Below are positions 6,001 to 12,000 of a stretch of DNA of 64,000 nt, piece by piece; the stretch's first letter is position 1, and each line of letters begins with the position of its first letter. A program made the position numbers. The stretch comes from Escherichia coli (GTDB taxonomy: Bacteria > Pseudomonadota > Gammaproteobacteria > Enterobacterales > Enterobacteriaceae): the NCBI RefSeq assembly GCF_011045215.1, contig NZ_CP049201.1; one strand, 5' to 3'.

Positions 6001-9000
6001 CTACAAAATCATCTATAAAACCATTTAACAAAATCATCGTAAGCACACAGTAAATCACGCCAGGTTATCTCAGCCGGATTTGCGTTTTACATAAAAACAC
6101 TTGTCTCAGGTTAACGACTAAAAACACGAAAACTCATAAAAGGTTAAATGTAACATCAGTAAAATCGAATAGCATATTGACTGCTTAAACAGGACAGGGA
6201 GTTTTGTAGTGACGTTAACTGATTTTAGTTAGCGTAAAGATTTACTAAACTGGATGTGTTTCAGACAAAGCAATGTGTATAACAATGCTTAATGAAAACA
6301 CTTGTAGAATTGTTTATGAAAACACGTGCATGTCTGGTAAAACACTTAGTAGAAAATACGTGTATAACACTTACTGAAATGCTTAGTAAAAATACTGAGT
6401 AAAATACGTGTATATAGTATCATACCGACATTCTCAACATCTTCAGACATCCATGCAGACTGAGTGTTGATTTCAGTTTTTCACGGCCAGCATGGATCTT
6501 TACTGGTCAAAAAACAGACAGATTTACTCTGGAATTATTTTTCCAGGCCTCCCTGAAAAGACCATCCGGAGCACCCCGTTCGTCAGCTTCCATGTTGTCT
6601 TTTACCCCCGGAAAGTGATCGCATTTTCCAGCCAGAATGACAGCCATACTGATTATGACGTCTCTCCGGCCCCTTCACATATAACATTCATGTCAGTCAT
6701 TTCTACTGTCTCACTCACCGAAATTCTCCATGCCGGATGAAGCAATTGTTCTGAACTGAGCAGAAGCATAACAGCACACACAAGGAAACGACTGTGCCAT
6801 AGATCCCGGAATCAGGATCTTAATGTCAGGAAAACAGTGACGACCGGGGATAACTAACAACAACCTGAGTACAGAAGAAAGCTTTCCCGCGCACGCCACC
6901 ATCTTATGTAAGAGGATATGATGCCCCCACCTCAGAAGAACCGTCTCCGGGAGAACTTCACTGCATCAAAAATCCTTTTGCTGAGTTCTCATTCCCCATC
7001 ATGGCAGCTACAGACATGCCCTGACAGAGCGTATGCGCATTGAGAGAAATAACCATAAATGATGAGAAGACACTCTATATGACGACAGCATGTTGAGGTA
7101 TAAAAAATATTCATCTAAATATTTTAAGAATATTTTTTATTGCAAATTACATGAAATAACATGATGTCAATATAATTTTGTCAAATGCGTGAGATTAATC
7201 ACATTGTAATTTTATGTATTTTTATGTAAATAAGAGAAAATGATCCATGAGCGTTATTGCATTTTTTCTGATGTATGGATAAAAGGGGGATTCAGGCAAA
7301 ATTTACTGACAGAGGAGATGATAAGAGGGGGTTAAAGAGTTCTATAGAGTTGGTTGTGCATTTATACCCAGGGAGTTCATGTCTGTGCATTCACCAGATG
7401 AATCTGCTCATGTTTTTAGTAGGATGGAATATGAATATCACCGACATAACGATAAATTACGTTCTGTTAATGCTGATAATGCAGGCAGAGACGTTGTTCC
7501 GGAGTGGGTGCAAAAAGACCCTGTAGCCGCATTCTGGGTATGGATGTTTATATATCATGTTCCTGACAGTATTGTCCGACTCTCAGGTGAGCGATATGCA
7601 GATTACGGAACTTCCTGTCTGTATTCCAGACTGTTCGCTGCTGAAGCACTTCCGGTTGAGCATCAGGCAAGGATTAGTGTGACGAGAAAATGGCTACAGG
7701 AACTTAAAAGGCTAACCGGAACAGAAAATGTATCTGACTTCTTGTATGCCGTTCATTTTTTATGGTCATATGCTGAAAAAGTGAACCCCATGACATGGCT
7801 TGGTTCCCGGCGGATACATATCAAATGGGCATGGGCGTATCTGCAGAAACATTGCACTGACGAAGAACGTCACTGTCCTGATATTTCAGAATTTAAAGCT
7901 TCAGGGGAGTCCCGTCTGTTCATAATAGCTTATGTGCGCTGTGTCTTCATGAAAATCTATTCTGTCGGTACTGAACCTCAAAAGTTAAAAGAATTAGTTC
8001 ATCAGCAGAATGATTTTCTCAGGCGCATGAAGTGCTCATACCAGAAAATGTTCCGGTATGAGAAAACCGATTCCCGGGTACAGATAAGTGCCCTGATTTC
8101 TCCGGAAGCCAGGAATGCACTCCGGAAAATGGCAAAAAAGAATAATCTGACTCAGGCTGAAATACTGGATAAACTCATCTTATCAGCTGATCGTCTGTTT
8201 ATGCAGAAAACAACCGGGGATTATTCCCGTTAATGAGTTCCACCAGAACCGTTTTTCTTTTTGCTGCTGTTTTTGCGTTTATGCTGTTCGTACCTTTCTT
8301 TTGACGTACAAAGGAATCTTCCATAAACATTGCGGATATATGAGTTGATACACTCCAGCATTCTCTCTTTTCGTGATTTCCCTTTTTCCTTCGAATCTTC
8401 ACTTTGAACATTAATGTTCATCAGTTCTTTTATAAACTTATCCAGATTTTCCATGTCATAAAGCAGCATGAAAAACATCACATTTCCCAGTGATTCCAGT
8501 AACTGAGATTCAACCCTGTACCCATATTTTCTGAAACTTAGCCCTGTTAAAAACTGTTCAAACATTACCCCTGATTCAAAAAGAGATTTTAATCCCAGTC
8601 GCTTATATTCCAGGTAAAAAAGTTCAAACGTCGGGGATGCTGAACGGCAAATAAACGAAGACAGCGCCCATGGATCAAAATATGTAACACGCTTCCCCTC
8701 CCGCACTTCCTGCGGTGTCAGCGGCGGTTCAGCAAACCAGGCGTCCAGCTCAGCCGAATCGCTGTCCCTGCTCAAAACCTCATACAAACTGCCCGTGAAC
8801 GGTTGAGGCGGATTTTTGGTTGCTTCATCTTCTGATTGTCTGGATTGTCTGAATCCGTCCACTTTTCTCCGGATATTACGCGGGATCAGCATAAAAGGCG
8901 GGACATTAAGTGATAAATGTTTACCCGTCATGCGATACCATTGCCCCACCTCAACCTTAATCCGTGTATCTGGCCTTAGCTCAAGTGCTATTATGTTAAG

Positions 9001-12000
9001 CAGGTACAGATAACGCACCGTATAACAGTCAAAATGTTTCTCCGGATCAAACGGCTCTGACCCTTCTCTGCACACGAGTCCTCTGCGCTTCAGTATTCGC
9101 TGGGTATCTTTCCAGGCCTTACTCTGAAGAATGGTGGTAACTCTGGCCTTATTAACAATATCACGCAGTGCATCACCTTGTTGTGCCGTCATCCAACACC
9201 TCCCGCACTCTGTCACTCCAGATTTTTTCACGCCCATATTACCTGAATGATAAGCCGGATTAGTGTGATCCGGTTAGGTAAAATCAACAGGATACCGGTA
9301 TGTTATTCAGCCATTCTTCCCTCTCCGCGCAAGTGAAATCACATCTGACGTTTCTTCCTGAAGAAATTCGCCAGAAAATCCTTGAACATCTCCACAGCGT
9401 TATTCATTACGAGCCCGTGATTGGCATTATGGGTAAATCCGGCACAGGCAAAAGCAGTCTGTGTAATGCCATTTTTCAGTCCCGTATCTGCGCCACGCAT
9501 CCCCTGAACGGCTGCACCCGCCAGGCTCATCGCCTCTCCCTGCAGATTGGTGAACGCAGAATGACGCTGGTCGATCTGCCCGGCATTGGTGAAACACCGC
9601 AGCATGATCAGGAATACCGGGAGCTTTACCGTCAGTTACTGCCGGAACTGGATCTGATTATCTGGATCCTGCGGGCTGATGAACGTGCGTATGCTGCCGA
9701 TATTGCCATGCATCAGTTTTTACTGAATGAAGGCGCAGATCCCTCGCGTTTTCTGTTTGTTCTCAGCCATGCCGATCGCGTATTTCCTGCTGAAGAATGG
9801 AACGACACAGAAAAATGCCCGTCCCGTCAGCAGGAACTCTCACTGGCAACAGTAACAGCCCGGGTGGTAACCCTGTTCCCTTCATCATTTCCGGTACTCT
9901 CCGTTGCCGCACCTGTCGGCTGGAACCTTCCGGCATTTGTGTCGCTGATGATCCACGCACTGCCACCACAGGCAACCAGCGCGGTGTATTCACATATCCG
10001 GGGGGAAAACCGCTCTGAACAGGCCCGGAAACACGCACAACAGACTTTTGGTGAAACCATCGGGAAAAGTTTTGACGACGCCGTTGCCCGTTTCAGTTTT
10101 CCGGCCTGGATGTTACAGCTTCTGCGCAAAACCCGGGACCGCATTATCCGCCTGCTGGTCACACTGTGGGATCACCTGTTCTGAGCGCCCCGGAGTCCCC
10201 CGTGGCAACCGTATACCTTTACACGACAACGGATTACGGTAACCACTGCCGTATACCGTCTGTCATTATCAATAACACGCTCTTTAATTTCAGAGGTCAG
10301 TCATGAATACCAGAATTCTTTTTCCCCTGCTGTTCACTGTGGCATCCTTCTCCGCCTCCGCCGGTAACTGGGCTGTCAAAAACGGCTGGTGTCAGACCAT
10401 GACGGAAGATGGTCAGGCGCTGGTAATGCTGAAAAATGGCACGATTGGTATTATCGGCCTGATGCAGGGATGTCCGAATGGCGTACAGACGCTCCTGGGC
10501 AGCCGTATCAGTATTAACGGTAACCTGATCCCCACATCACAAATGTGTAATCAGCAGACGGGATTCAGGGCTGTTGAGGTGGAAATCGGACAGGCGCCGG
10601 AAATGGTCAAAAAAGCCGTTCACTCCATAGCAGAGCGTGATGTGTCCGTTTTACAGGCATTTGGTGTACGAATGGAATTCACCCGCGGTGATATGCTGAA
10701 GGTCTGTCCGAAATTTGTCACATCACTTGCCGGTTTTTCCCCGAAACAGACGACCACTATTAATAAAGACTCCGTACTGCAGGCTGCCCGACAGGCATAC
10801 GCCCGGAAATACGACGAGGAAACAACAGAAACCGCTGATTTTGGCTCTTACGAAGTAAAAGGCAATAAGGTTGAGTTTGAAGTGTTCAATCCTGAAGACC
10901 GTGCGTACGACAAAGTGACCGTCACGGTTGGTGCTGACGGTAATGCCACCGGCGCCAGCGTTGAATTTATCGGAAAATAGCCGGTATGTCGGACTGCCAC
11001 CCTGTTTTATTGCCCGAAGGCCCTTTCTCACGCGAACAGGCGGTTGCCGTCACAACAGCTTACCGCAATGTGCTTATTGAAGATGACCAGGGAACGCATT
11101 TCCGGCTGGTTATCCGCAATGCCGAAGGGCAGCTACGCTGGCGGTGCTGGAATTTTGAACCTGATGCCGGAAAACAGCTAAATTCGTATCTCGCCAGTGA
11201 GGGAATTCTCAGGCAATAAACGTCTTCATTTCATCCATCAGGCCGCGTCTTCTCCGGGAGACGTGGCTTTTTCATTTATTACACCAGTAAATCTTAACCA
11301 CCGATAAGGAGCAAATTATGCGACTAGCCAGTCGTTTTGGTTATGCGAACCAGATACGCCGTGACCGTCCGCTGACACACGAAGAACTGATGCACTATGT
11401 GCCGGGGATTTTCGGGGAAGAGAAACACACGTCCCGAAGCCAGAACTATACGTACATCCCCACCATCACCGTACTGGAAAGCCTGCAGCGGGAAGGCTTT
11501 CAGCCATTCTTCGCCTGCCAGACCCGTGTGCGCGACCCGGGCCGCCGGGGATACACCAAACACATGCTGCGTCTGCGGCGGGCCGGAGAGATAACCGGTC
11601 AGCATGTGCCTGAAATTATTCTGCTCAACTCCCATGACGGTACCTCCAGCTACCAAATGTTACCCGGATATTTTCGTGCCATTTGTACCAATGGCCTGGT
11701 CTGCGGTCAGTCACTGGGAGAAGTGCGTGTACCTCACCGGGGAAATGTGGTGGACAGGGTCATCGAAGGTGCTTACGAGGTGGTAGGCGTTTTTGACCGG
11801 ATTGAGGAAAAGCGTGATGCCATGCAGTCGCTGGTTCTGCCGCCACCGGCACGTCAGGCACTGGCACAGGCGGCGCTGACTTACCGTTATGGTGATGAAC
11901 ATCAACCCGTCACCACTGCCGACATTCTGACACCACGACGCCGGGAGGATTACGGTAAGGACCGGTGGAGCGCATATCAGACCATCCAGGAGAATATGCT

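What the first reader, a model, noticed from the sequence alone, without database searches (positions are those of the whole stretch)
7379..9192. Convergent, 3'-overlapping pair of unknown genes in the selC island
Neither protein matches a family I recognise. The plus-strand protein ends in a ribbon-helix-helix-like segment, suggesting a DNA-binding regulator or plasmid/phage replication-partition protein. The pair sits in the variable cargo position between P4-like replication genes and the YeeP-like GTPase, where defence or anti-defence genes are often found.
Basis: inference. Interest (0 to 1): 0.5.

Follow-up and report, generated by a model that had tools for sequence, protein, structure and literature searches.

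The report
Conserved regulator-like gene pair in island
Two real, uncharacterised, tail-to-tail genes sit at the hinge of a common family of E. coli genomic islands; one very probably encodes a DNA-binding regulator, and the pair looks like a fixed, fast-evolving control module of the island rather than swappable defence cargo.

Summary
A 284-aa gene (7379-8233, +) and a 320-aa gene (8230-9192, -) converge, and their stop codons share TTAA (8230-8233). Both are real genes, intact from 99% down to about 22% identity across Enterobacterales.

Neither protein matches Pfam, NCBIfam, PADLOC, PHROGs or PDB significantly. The plus protein ends in a ribbon-helix-helix (RHH) segment, supported by sub-threshold RepB-RCR_reg, RepA and Arc hits and a clear sequence pattern. 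In front of it lies a Trp-rich helical domain whose fold is seen only in uncharacterised enterobacterial proteins. The minus protein is an orphan with no enzyme-like motif.

The "variable cargo" reading is not supported. In 11 distinct contexts the pair lies between the AlpA/YfjJ-like genes and the YeeP-like GTPase wherever there is enough flanking sequence, and it diverges along with the island. It is, however, an allelic hotspot. A cassette at about 6700-8600 (plus upstream region, plus gene, 3' third of minus) is only 35-55% identical between islands whose flanks are 85-100% identical. Each type has its own 11-12-nt periodic repeats upstream of plus.

Best reading (confidence about 0.4): a type-specific regulatory switch of the island. 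Rivals are a defence or toxin-antitoxin-like module, and replication or transfer control. Moderately interesting; function untested.

The parts
7379..8233 (+). Plus gene, 284 aa: orphan Trp-rich helical N-domain followed by a C-terminal ribbon-helix-helix (type A allele)
   Evidence: ORF and translation. PGAP names it 'replication regulatory RepB family protein' or 'hypothetical'. The family is confined to Enterobacterales. The AF2 model has pLDDT 65.8 and is all-helical.
7490..7978 (+). N-terminal helical domain of plus (about aa 38-200), with invariant W43, W55, W129, W140, W152
8075..8185 (+). Ribbon-helix-helix segment of plus (R233-S269: RVQISALIS-PEARNALRKMAKKNN-LTQ-AEILDKLILS)
   Evidence: NCBIfam RepA E=2.6e-4. 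PHROG Arc-like repressor E=0.089. PF10723 is precomputed on relatives and hits 5 of 9 members. The pattern is conserved in A5 and A7. The AF2 monomer model does not show the strand.
8230..9192 (-). Minus gene, 320 aa: orphan protein with a conserved N-domain (aa 1 to about 197; 8602-9192) and a type-variable C-domain with a basic tail (8233-8601)
   Evidence: Motifs AWxNTQxMLKRSG, IVPxxIRRKADxFxQ, GSLY, LECxRLG and LGxALFF. No Walker A motif. No Pfam or PDB hit. The AF2 model is unusable at pLDDT 46.
8230..8233 (.). TTAA shared by the two convergent stop codons
   Evidence: Read directly from the sequence. The same overlap is present in types A and B and in L014.
6700..8600 (.). Allelic cassette: plus upstream region, plus gene and the 3' third of minus. 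It is 35-55% identical to type B islands whose flanks are 85-100% identical
   Evidence: Sliding-window identity against L003, L007 and L002. Protein identities: plus 27%, minus 57-68%, GTPase 92-95%, DUF932 90-96%, YfjJ-like 86-87%.
7105..7135 (+). Operator-like array: three RAATATT units spaced 11-12 nt apart, 244-274 nt upstream of the plus ATG, inside a perfect 13-nt inverted repeat (7100-7112 / 7128-7140)
   Evidence: Only 3 of 2000 shuffles give a 3-unit chain. This is the only such cluster in the 64-kb window. Type B has four GAATAG units spaced 11 nt apart at the equivalent place, and GAAnTAGTT repeats occur in L010 and L014. The array is kept in type A variants L025, L024 and L027, where some units are degenerate.
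9216..9273 (.). Conserved control block between the minus start and the GTPase start. In minus orientation it reads TCAnnnnR-GTAATAT-GGGCGTGAAAAAATCTGGAG, and it includes the hairpin CCGGAT-N7-ATCCGG (9255-9273)
   Evidence: Nearly invariant across islands whose proteins are only 22-57% identical. The hairpin is kept through changes in its inner pairs and folds better on the GTPase-sense strand in 5 of 5 loci.
9300..10184 (+). YeeP/YfjP-like GTPase, first gene of the DUF932-antirestriction-RadC-CbeA/CbtA arm, transcribed divergently from minus
   Evidence: Weak PADLOC LeoBC match, E=1.7e-7.

Best explanation
The pair is a core (backbone) control module of a family of CP4-57-like integrative islands of Enterobacterales. 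It sits at the hinge between two arms: the AlpA/YfjJ(Rep-like)/integrase arm and the GTPase-DUF932-antirestriction-RadC-CbeA/CbtA arm.

The plus protein is a DNA-binding regulator. Its C-terminal ribbon-helix-helix would dimerise and bind the 11-12-nt periodic repeats about 250 nt upstream of its own gene. That would set its own expression and possibly that of the divergent Rep-like arm. Its Trp-rich helical N-domain would serve as a sensor or partner-binding domain.

The minus protein is a non-enzymatic two-domain partner. It is expressed from a very strongly conserved promoter/operator block shared back-to-back with the GTPase operon. Its conserved N-domain belongs with that conserved block. 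Its variable C-domain travels with the plus type and may contact the plus protein.

Because the plus gene, its upstream repeats and the minus C-domain are exchanged together as one allelic cassette, the module would give each island its own regulatory specificity, comparable to a phage or satellite immunity region.

Shown here: gene reality, synteny, cassette boundaries, the repeats and the conserved block. Inferred: DNA binding, its targets, any plus-minus contact, and the switch function.
For: Synteny. The position and orientation are fixed in all 11 distinct contexts, from 99% to about 22% identity. The pair diverges along with the island backbone, only faster.

RHH.

Type specificity. The cassette has sharp boundaries. 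Each type has a unique periodic repeat array upstream of plus: AATATT x3 in type A, GAATAG x4 in type B, and related GAAnTAGTT repeats in L010 and L014. Only 3 of 2000 shuffles reach a 3-unit chain, and it is the only cluster per locus. The RHH beta-strand differs accordingly: QISALIS in type A against QINVKIS in type B.

Minus side. A conserved -10-like TAATAT, flanked by inverted TCAC/GTGA half-sites, lies 41-68 nt upstream of the minus ATG in 9 of 10 loci examined; in L017 it lies 202 nt upstream. Minus has no catalytic or NTPase motif and carries conserved basic patches.

Not defence cargo on current evidence. No defence, phage or plasmid family matches, and the protein is absent from phages and present in only 2 of 72,556 plasmids.
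Against: No direct evidence of DNA binding. All RHH hits are below curated thresholds, PDB RHH structures are not retrieved by sequence, and the AF2 monomer draws the strand as a helix.

The repeats are short and AT-rich, and they lie 160-275 nt from the ATG with no clear sigma-70 promoter nearby.

The co-variation of the minus C-domain with the plus type can be explained by physical linkage alone.

Minus has no recognisable DNA-binding fold.

Both genes evolve fast (dN/dS 0.3-0.9, against 0.1-0.3 for the GTPase), which is equally typical of conflict genes.

K-12 CP4-57 lacks the pair entirely, so it is not required by every island of this kind.

Types A and B co-occur in genomes about as often as chance predicts, roughly 17 observed against 20 expected. 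That shows neither exclusion nor attraction.
Confidence: 0.4

Rival explanations
1. The pair, possibly together with the adjacent YeeP-like GTPase, is a conflict module: a new anti-phage, abortive-infection or toxin-antitoxin-like system. The minus protein would be the effector or toxin. The RHH protein would be its neutraliser and transcriptional regulator. Diversification would be driven by an arms race.
Against: No PADLOC hit for either protein. The convergent arrangement is atypical for toxin-antitoxin pairs and defence operons. The pair is fixed in the backbone rather than exchanged for other systems within this island clade. Minus has no nuclease, NTPase, TIR or pore-like motif. Both proteins are large for a type II toxin-antitoxin pair.
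Confidence: 0.2
2. The pair controls replication or copy number, or stable maintenance, of the excised island. The RHH protein would act like CopG, CopB or RepB-RCR_reg on the Rep-like YfjJ gene and the nearby iteron-like array. Minus would be an initiator accessory or adaptor protein.
For: The only family signals are replication-regulator RHH models. The plus gene is divergent from a YagK/YfjJ 'inovirus Gp2 / REP_ORF2-G2P' gene. An AAAACAC iteron-like array (5887-6414) lies between them and is conserved in the E. coli islands.
Against: Known Cop-type repressors are 45-90 aa and are co-transcribed just upstream of rep (my own knowledge). Here the protein is 284 aa, divergent from the Rep-like gene and 2 kb away from it. 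The iteron array does not change with the plus type, whereas the RHH strand does. Distant islands (L014, L020) keep the pair but lack the array. Minus has no Walker A motif, so it is not a ParA-like partner.
Confidence: 0.17
3. The pair consists of transfer (relaxosome-type) accessory proteins of a mobilisable island. The conserved block at 9216-9273 would be an oriT or nick region, and the antirestriction/RadC arm would be the leading region.
For: RHH proteins are classical relaxosome accessory factors (my own knowledge). The conserved hairpin plus an invariant ATATTAC-containing block lies next to the arm carrying antirestriction, RadC and DUF932 genes. A HUH-like Rep family gene is present on the island.
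Against: The block reads well as a promoter (-10-like TAATAT) with a 5' UTR at a fixed distance from the minus ATG. With the inverted repeat placed 5' of the conserved block, transfer would lead into the pair and the yfjJ-like arm, not into the antirestriction arm (inference from known oriT layouts). The RHH type varies while the block does not. The family is almost absent from plasmids.
Confidence: 0.08
4. The genes are decaying remnants of a cryptic element and have no current function.
For: dN/dS is high (0.4-0.9). The window allele carries many radical changes, including at nearly invariant positions such as Q194L. Truncated copies exist (P0061-like, 233 aa).
Against: Intact full-length ORFs, motifs, synteny and upstream control elements persist across genera at 22-32% identity. 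The gene is present in 741 of 5426 complete E. coli genomes.
Confidence: 0.05

Closest known systems
CopG / RepB-RCR_reg (PF10723) / IncFII CopB (RepA2, PRK13702) ribbon-helix-helix copy-control repressors
   Same: The last roughly 40 residues of plus show the strand-helix-turn-helix pattern and give the only family hits, all sub-threshold. Tandem short repeats lie upstream of the gene.
   Different: The protein is 284 aa with a roughly 200-aa orphan helical N-domain, against 45-90 aa for known members. It is not co-transcribed with a rep gene: it is divergent from the Rep-like gene, 2 kb away, and paired convergently with an orphan protein.
Immunity or control regions of phages and satellites (lambda CI/Cro; SaPI Stl/Str)
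   Same: Central position between two divergently transcribed arms. Alleles are sharply bounded, so that regulator and putative operator change together while the flanks stay alike.
   Different: The two genes here are convergent, not divergent. There is no homology to these regulators. Repressor function is untested. No exclusion between co-resident types was seen.
Type II toxin-antitoxin pairs with RHH antitoxins (ParD, CcdA, RelB, HicB)
   Same: An RHH DNA-binding domain fused to a second domain. HicB also carries its DNA-binding domain at the C-terminus (my own knowledge). Two genes, tightly adjacent, on a mobile element.
   Different: Convergent rather than co-directional. Both proteins are about 300 aa. 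No match to toxin or antitoxin families in Pfam, NCBIfam or PADLOC.
MatP (helical bundle + RHH + coiled coil)
   Different: The score is at noise level, there is no sequence similarity, and the genomic role is different.
AbpAB and RnlAB of K-12 CP4-57
   Same: They occupy the same slot between yfjJ and the GTPase gene yfjP.
   Different: No homology: tblastn with the pair finds nothing in CP4-57 at E<0.4. The orientation, sizes and domains also differ.

Membership tests
Ribbon-helix-helix (Arc/MetJ/CopG) DNA-binding superfamily | A segment of about 45 aa with beta-strand, helix A, a G/N-x-S/T/N turn and helix B, recognisable by family profiles | tested here: inconclusive
   The pattern is conserved in 9 divergent members. 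Hits: NCBIfam RepA E=2.6e-4, below cutoff; PF10723 on 5 of 9 members at E<=0.1, best 4.6e-5; RHH_1 E=0.076. There are no PDB hits, and the AF2 monomer draws the strand as a helix.
Ribbon-helix-helix (Arc/MetJ/CopG) DNA-binding superfamily | The dimer forms a two-stranded sheet that binds repeated operator half-sites | not testable with these tools
   Only indirect evidence: type-specific repeats spaced 11-12 nt apart upstream of the gene.
CopG/RepB-RCR_reg/CopB plasmid copy-control repressors | A small protein (about 45-90 aa) encoded directly upstream of, and co-transcribed with, the rep gene it represses | tested here: not met
   The protein is 284 aa, divergent from the Rep-like gene (4672-5412) and 1966 nt away from it.
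Type II toxin-antitoxin system | Two co-directional, usually overlapping genes in one operon, with a recognisable toxin fold | tested here: not met
   The genes are convergent. No toxin or antitoxin family is found in Pfam, NCBIfam or PADLOC.
Type II toxin-antitoxin system | Toxicity of one partner that is neutralised by the other | not testable with these tools
   Needs expression experiments.
Known anti-phage defence systems (PADLOC-DB v2.0.0, 2023) | A match of at least one component to a defence-system model | tested here: not met
   Zero families for either protein at E<=1. Only the neighbouring GTPase matches LeoBC weakly.
ParA/ParG-type partition module | An RHH centromere-binding protein partnered with a Walker-type ATPase | tested here: not met
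   No Walker A motif in any of 20 minus-family members.
Backbone (core) gene set of CP4-57-like islands carrying the YeeP-like GTPase | Same position and orientation in islands that have diverged, with divergence tracking that of backbone genes | tested here: met
   11 distinct contexts. In L014 and L020 the identities are GTPase 55-57%, DUF932 65-74%, minus 28-32%, plus 22%. K-12 CP4-57, whose GTPase is only 37% identical, lacks the pair.

The most novel reading that the evidence does not exclude
The cassette is a specificity determinant of an unrecognised conflict or compatibility system. The RHH protein, the orphan partner and the adjacent YeeP-like GTPase operon would together form a type-specific switch. 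That switch would either defend the cell (or the island) against phages or rival islands, or allow several related islands to coexist in one chromosome without regulatory cross-talk. Positive selection would drive the allelic diversification.
Probability: 0.15. Interest if true: 0.7.

Novelty: new variant of a known kind. Interest (0 to 1): 0.4.

Why it matters
Islands of this CP4-57-like family are among the commonest integrative elements of E. coli. The minus gene alone is present in 741 of 5426 complete genomes (14%), with up to three copies per genome. How these islands are regulated beyond AlpA and the integrase is essentially unknown.

This work identifies a conserved central module with three features: an RHH DNA-binding protein, type-specific operator-like repeats, and an unusually conserved promoter/operator block in front of the GTPase-antirestriction-RadC-CbtA arm. 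That gives concrete, testable handles on how these islands are switched on.

It also corrects a tempting annotation shortcut. In this island clade the slot next to the GTPase is backbone, and the variable cargo lies on the far side of the yfjJ-like gene.

Tried and rejected
Family and sequence searches that found nothing usable
- Pfam, NCBIfam, PADLOC and PHROGs on both proteins and on family alignments gave nothing significant.
- PDB sequence and profile searches with single proteins, with alignments A3 and A5, and with an RHH-only profile (A7) found no relatives.
- hhalign of the two families against each other shows they are unrelated.
- tblastn against phages found no match; against plasmids it found 2 of 72,556.
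- tblastn of the pair against K-12 CP4-57 found no remnant.

Structure
- AF2 on minus with a shallow alignment gave pLDDT 46, which is unusable.

Wider loci and RNA
- Rfam found no RNA family in 1-20000.
- The sigma-70 and terminator scans gave no convincing promoter for plus and no terminator between the two genes.

Tests that did not discriminate
- Heteroimmunity or exclusion: type A occurs in 195 genomes, type B in 563 and any type in 741. That implies about 17 genomes with both, against about 20 expected by chance.
- The dN/dS burst rests on a single lineage pair (P=0.026, uncorrected), so I do not treat it as established positive selection.
- I considered an oriT reading of the 9216-9273 block and ranked it low, because the geometry fits a promoter better.

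Literature
- Six full-text searches found no paper that characterises these proteins.

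
Full report

Yes. The window has a 284-codon ORF on the plus strand (7379-8233) and a 320-codon ORF on the minus strand (8230-9192). The longest version of the minus ORF runs to 9237. The plus stop TAA (8231-8233) and the minus stop (complement of 8230-8232) share the four bases TTAA. Both starts have good Shine-Dalgarno sequences: AGGGAG before 7379, and GGGAGGTG before the ATG at 9190-9192. NCBI's PGAP pipeline annotates exactly these two CDSs in E. coli BEN5202 (98.8% identical DNA) and in strain 26561.

They are genes rather than chance ORFs. Both remain intact and alignable in relatives down to 22-32% protein identity. Their dN/dS is below 1 in almost all comparisons. 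The exact proteins are already in public databases, named 'hypothetical protein' and 'replication regulatory RepB family protein'.

**2. Where is it?**

The window is E. coli. No tRNA gene lies in it. The island's far end (DUF4942) abuts setC-yicL-nlpA in annotated genomes that match the window, which from my own knowledge is the selC-proximal region of K-12. The 'selC island' label is therefore plausible.

The island belongs to the CP4-57 type. On one side lie a YfjI-like gene, cargo genes and a YagK/YfjJ 'inovirus Gp2' Rep-like gene (4672-5412, minus strand). On the other side lie a YeeP/YfjP-like GTPase (9300-10184), then DUF932, antirestriction, RadC, DUF987, CbeA/CbtA, DUF5983 and DUF4942 genes. 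The pair sits between these two arms. Plus is divergent from the Rep-like gene across a 2-kb AT-rich spacer. Minus is divergent from the GTPase across 107 nt.

**3. What are the proteins?**

Neither has a significant hit in Pfam, NCBIfam, PADLOC or PHROGs, or in PDB by sequence or profile.

*Plus.* Residues 233-269 (RVQISALIS-PEARNALRKMAKKNN-LTQ-AEILDKLILS) have the strand/helix/turn/helix pattern of a ribbon-helix-helix. The supporting hits are all sub-threshold:
- NCBIfam RepA PRK13702 at E=2.6e-4, and a PHROG Arc-like repressor at E=0.089.
- PF10723 (RepB-RCR_reg) is precomputed on relatives and hits 5 of 9 divergent members, best 4.6e-5.
- The pattern xVQINxKISxxAKxxLxxL...TQxxxLExLI is conserved family-wide.

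*Minus.* This is an orphan protein. A word-indexed search of 5.8 billion proteins found 66 clusters, named as Escherichia or Enterobacteriaceae wherever a source name is given (one is attributed to a Negativicoccus MAG), all called hypothetical and without Pfam domains. An exhaustive profile search of 1.84 billion representatives found 48 proteins. About 17 of these are full-length relatives at 21-30% identity, including Citrobacter, Serratia and Hafnia.

The conserved motifs are AWxNTQxMLKRSG, IVPxxIRRKADxFxQ, GSLY, LECxRLG, LGxALFF and a basic C-terminal tail. There is no Walker A motif and no obvious catalytic constellation. The AF2 model was unusable at pLDDT 46, because I ran it on the shallow alignment. 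The two families are unrelated to each other.

**4. Cargo or backbone?**

I examined 11 distinct genomic contexts:
- E. coli type A: window, BEN5202, strain 26561, L025, L027.
- E. coli type B: E9, L003, L007, L010.
- Distant relatives: L014, L016, L017, L020, L021, L022.

In every one, the minus-like gene has a convergent partner of 256-320 aa (cut at 193 residues by the contig end in L021), often with a weak PF10723 hit at its C-terminus. Wherever there is flanking sequence, the GTPase is divergent from minus, and AlpA and/or a YfjJ-like gene lie beyond plus. The exception is L017, which is rearranged.

In L014 and L020 the GTPase is 55-57% identical to the window's and DUF932 is 65-74% identical. 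Minus is 28-32% identical and plus 22%. The pair has therefore diverged together with the island, only faster. That is the behaviour of a backbone module, not of interchangeable cargo.

The genes that do vary between these islands lie on the far side of the yfjJ-like gene. They include a TIR_2 protein, an Mrr_cat protein, a TonB-dependent receptor, and the esterase and acyltransferase of this window; a dGTPase family gene lies further out on that side in BEN5202.

In K-12 CP4-57 the slot between yfjJ and yfjP holds abpBA, yfjM and rnlAB. But that island has a much more distant GTPase (37% identity) and no trace of the pair.

The family is absent from 50,697 phage records and present in 2 of 72,556 plasmids. 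The minus gene occurs in 741 of 5426 complete E. coli genomes. Type A is in 195 genomes and type B in 563.

**5. An allelic cassette**

Between the window (type A) and the type B islands, the backbone proteins are very similar: GTPase 92-95%, DUF932 90-96%, YfjJ-like 86-87%. Plus is only 27% identical and minus 57-68%.

Sliding-window DNA identity shows a sharply bounded divergent block from about 6700 to about 8400-8600. It covers 680 nt upstream of plus, the plus gene and the 3' third of minus. Within it identity is 35-55%, while the flanks are 85-100% identical. The breakpoint inside minus falls near codon 197 in L007, which fits a domain boundary. The minus N-domain (aa 1-197) is nearly invariant among E. 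coli alleles, and the C-domain comes in types that go with the plus type.

**6. Candidate DNA targets**

*Upstream of plus.* Type A has three RAATATT units at 7105-7135, spaced 11-12 nt apart, inside a perfect 13-nt inverted repeat. Type B has four GAATAG units spaced 11 nt apart at the equivalent place. A chain of three exact hexamers at this spacing arose in 3 of 2000 shuffles, and a chain of four in none. In each locus, and in the whole 64-kb window, this is the only such cluster.

Related GAAnTAGTT repeats occur in L010 and in the distant L014. Type A variants that share the same RHH but have a 55-61% identical N-domain keep the array (L025) or a degenerate version at the same spacing (L027). 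The RHH beta-strand, which is the base-reading element in this fold (my own knowledge), differs between types: QISALIS against QINVKIS. Regulator and putative operator therefore change together.

*Upstream of minus.* A block reading TCAC(A/T)nnR-GTAATAT-RGnCGTGAAA...TCTGGA lies 41-68 nt before the ATG in 9 of the 10 loci examined (202 nt before it in L017), including islands whose proteins are only about 25% identical. It reads as a -10-like TAATAT bracketed by inverted TCAC/GTGA half-sites. That suggests an operator for a conserved factor. The conserved minus N-domain is one candidate, but this is an inference.

Next to it is a small hairpin (9255-9273). It is retained with changed inner pairs and folds better on the GTPase-sense strand in 5 of 5 loci. 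In distant islands it is followed by a U-run and the GTPase Shine-Dalgarno sequence. K-12 yfjP has an analogous hairpin and U-run.

**7. Most likely mechanism**

I favour a type-specific regulatory module (confidence about 0.4). The plus protein would bind its own upstream repeats through an RHH dimer and use its N-domain for sensing or partner contact. The minus protein would be expressed from the conserved back-to-back promoter region with the GTPase operon and would act as the partner. Its N-domain would be tied to the conserved block and its C-domain matched to the plus type. Because there is no room for a terminator between the genes in E. coli, their transcripts must overlap at the 3' ends, which could add mutual interference. 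I treat that as incidental, since distant relatives have gaps of 13-121 nt.

Shown here: the anatomy, the synteny, the cassette, the repeats and the conserved block. Inferred: DNA binding, the targets, plus-minus contact and the regulatory output.

**8. Rivals**

- A defence or toxin-antitoxin-like conflict module (0.2). It is favoured by the fast evolution, the K-12 precedent for this slot, a weak LeoBC-like signal in the GTPase, and a burst of 22 nonsynonymous against 1 synonymous change between the window allele and the common type A allele (P=0.026, uncorrected, one lineage). It is disfavoured by the fixed backbone position, the convergent layout and the absence of any effector-like motif.
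- Replication or copy-number control of the excised island (0.17). It is favoured by the nature of the RHH hits and by an AAAACAC iteron-like array at 5887-6414 between plus and the Rep-like gene. It is disfavoured because that array does not change with the plus type and is missing in distant islands that keep the pair.
- Transfer accessory proteins with an oriT (0.08).
- Decaying remnants (0.05).

**9. Novelty and value**

Both proteins are already catalogued as hypothetical. None of the six full-text searches found a paper that characterises them. The plus protein is a new architectural variant of an RHH regulator. The minus protein has no known relatives of defined function. The module as a whole (a convergent pair, an allelic cassette and flanking conserved control DNA) has not, as far as I could find, been described.

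It is moderately interesting. It is not a surprise in kind, but it is a concrete and widespread unknown at the control centre of a very common class of E. coli islands.

Noticed in passing
window 5887-6414: An iteron-like array lies in the 2-kb AT-rich spacer between the YfjJ/Rep-like gene and plus. AAAACAC occurs 7 times on one strand here (20 in the whole window, both strands). AAAAYACKT has 6 of its 8 window copies here. Units of 21-26 nt are spaced 24-25 nt apart at 6284-6414. The array is conserved, in the same orientation, in E. coli-type islands of both plus types, and it is absent in distant L014 and L020. It may be an origin or an operator array for the Rep-like protein or AlpA.
   Followed up: partly
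window 9216-9273: A strongly conserved control block lies between the minus and GTPase starts. It holds a -10-like TAATAT flanked by inverted TCAC/GTGA half-sites, plus a hairpin (9255-9273) kept through changes in its inner pairs. The hairpin is more stable on the GTPase-sense RNA strand in 5 of 5 loci. In distant islands it is followed by a U-run and the GTPase Shine-Dalgarno sequence, which could mean a leader attenuator. K-12 yfjP has a similar hairpin and U-run.
   Followed up: partly
window 8230-9192 vs L024 3352-4314: The window allele of minus differs from the common type A allele by 22 nonsynonymous and 1 synonymous change spread over codons 6-281 (dN/dS about 6; P=0.026, uncorrected). 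The adjacent plus gene shows 19:11 and the GTPase 16:26. Some changes hit nearly invariant positions (Q194L, D171Y). No alternative reading frame explains the pattern.
   Followed up: partly
window 2559-3557 (-) and 3710-4162 (-): Island cargo on the far side of the yfjJ-like gene: a hormone-sensitive-lipase-type esterase (LipP1-like, E=1.3e-69, below the curated cutoff) and a hexapeptide-repeat acyltransferase. Related islands carry other genes in this region instead, including a TIR_2 protein, an Mrr_cat protein, a TonB-dependent receptor and IS elements (a dGTPase family gene lies further out in BEN5202). This region, not the slot holding the pair, is the variable cargo region.
   Followed up: partly
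window 9300-10184: The YeeP-like GTPase gives a weak match (E=1.7e-7, residues 183-286) to the PADLOC LeoBC (Eleos, dynamin-like) model. The function of this very common island GTPase is unknown.
   Followed up: no
[not shown]
   Followed up: no
L010-L013 (P0061, 233 aa): A truncated minus-like protein that starts at the position of M88, with a 262-aa type B2 partner. The loci where it could be read (about 8-9 kb each, most of it on the partner's side) begin 40-216 nt upstream of the truncated gene. It may be an alternative start or a decayed copy.
   Followed up: no
L017 2703-8846: One distant relative keeps the pair near a different P-loop GTPase (387 aa, with a weak DUF697 hit) and a WYL-domain protein. 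No DUF932, RadC or CbtA gene lies within the 7 kb of flank available. This hints that the pair may be linked more tightly to a GTPase/WYL unit than to the rest of the island arm, but it is a single example.
   Followed up: partly
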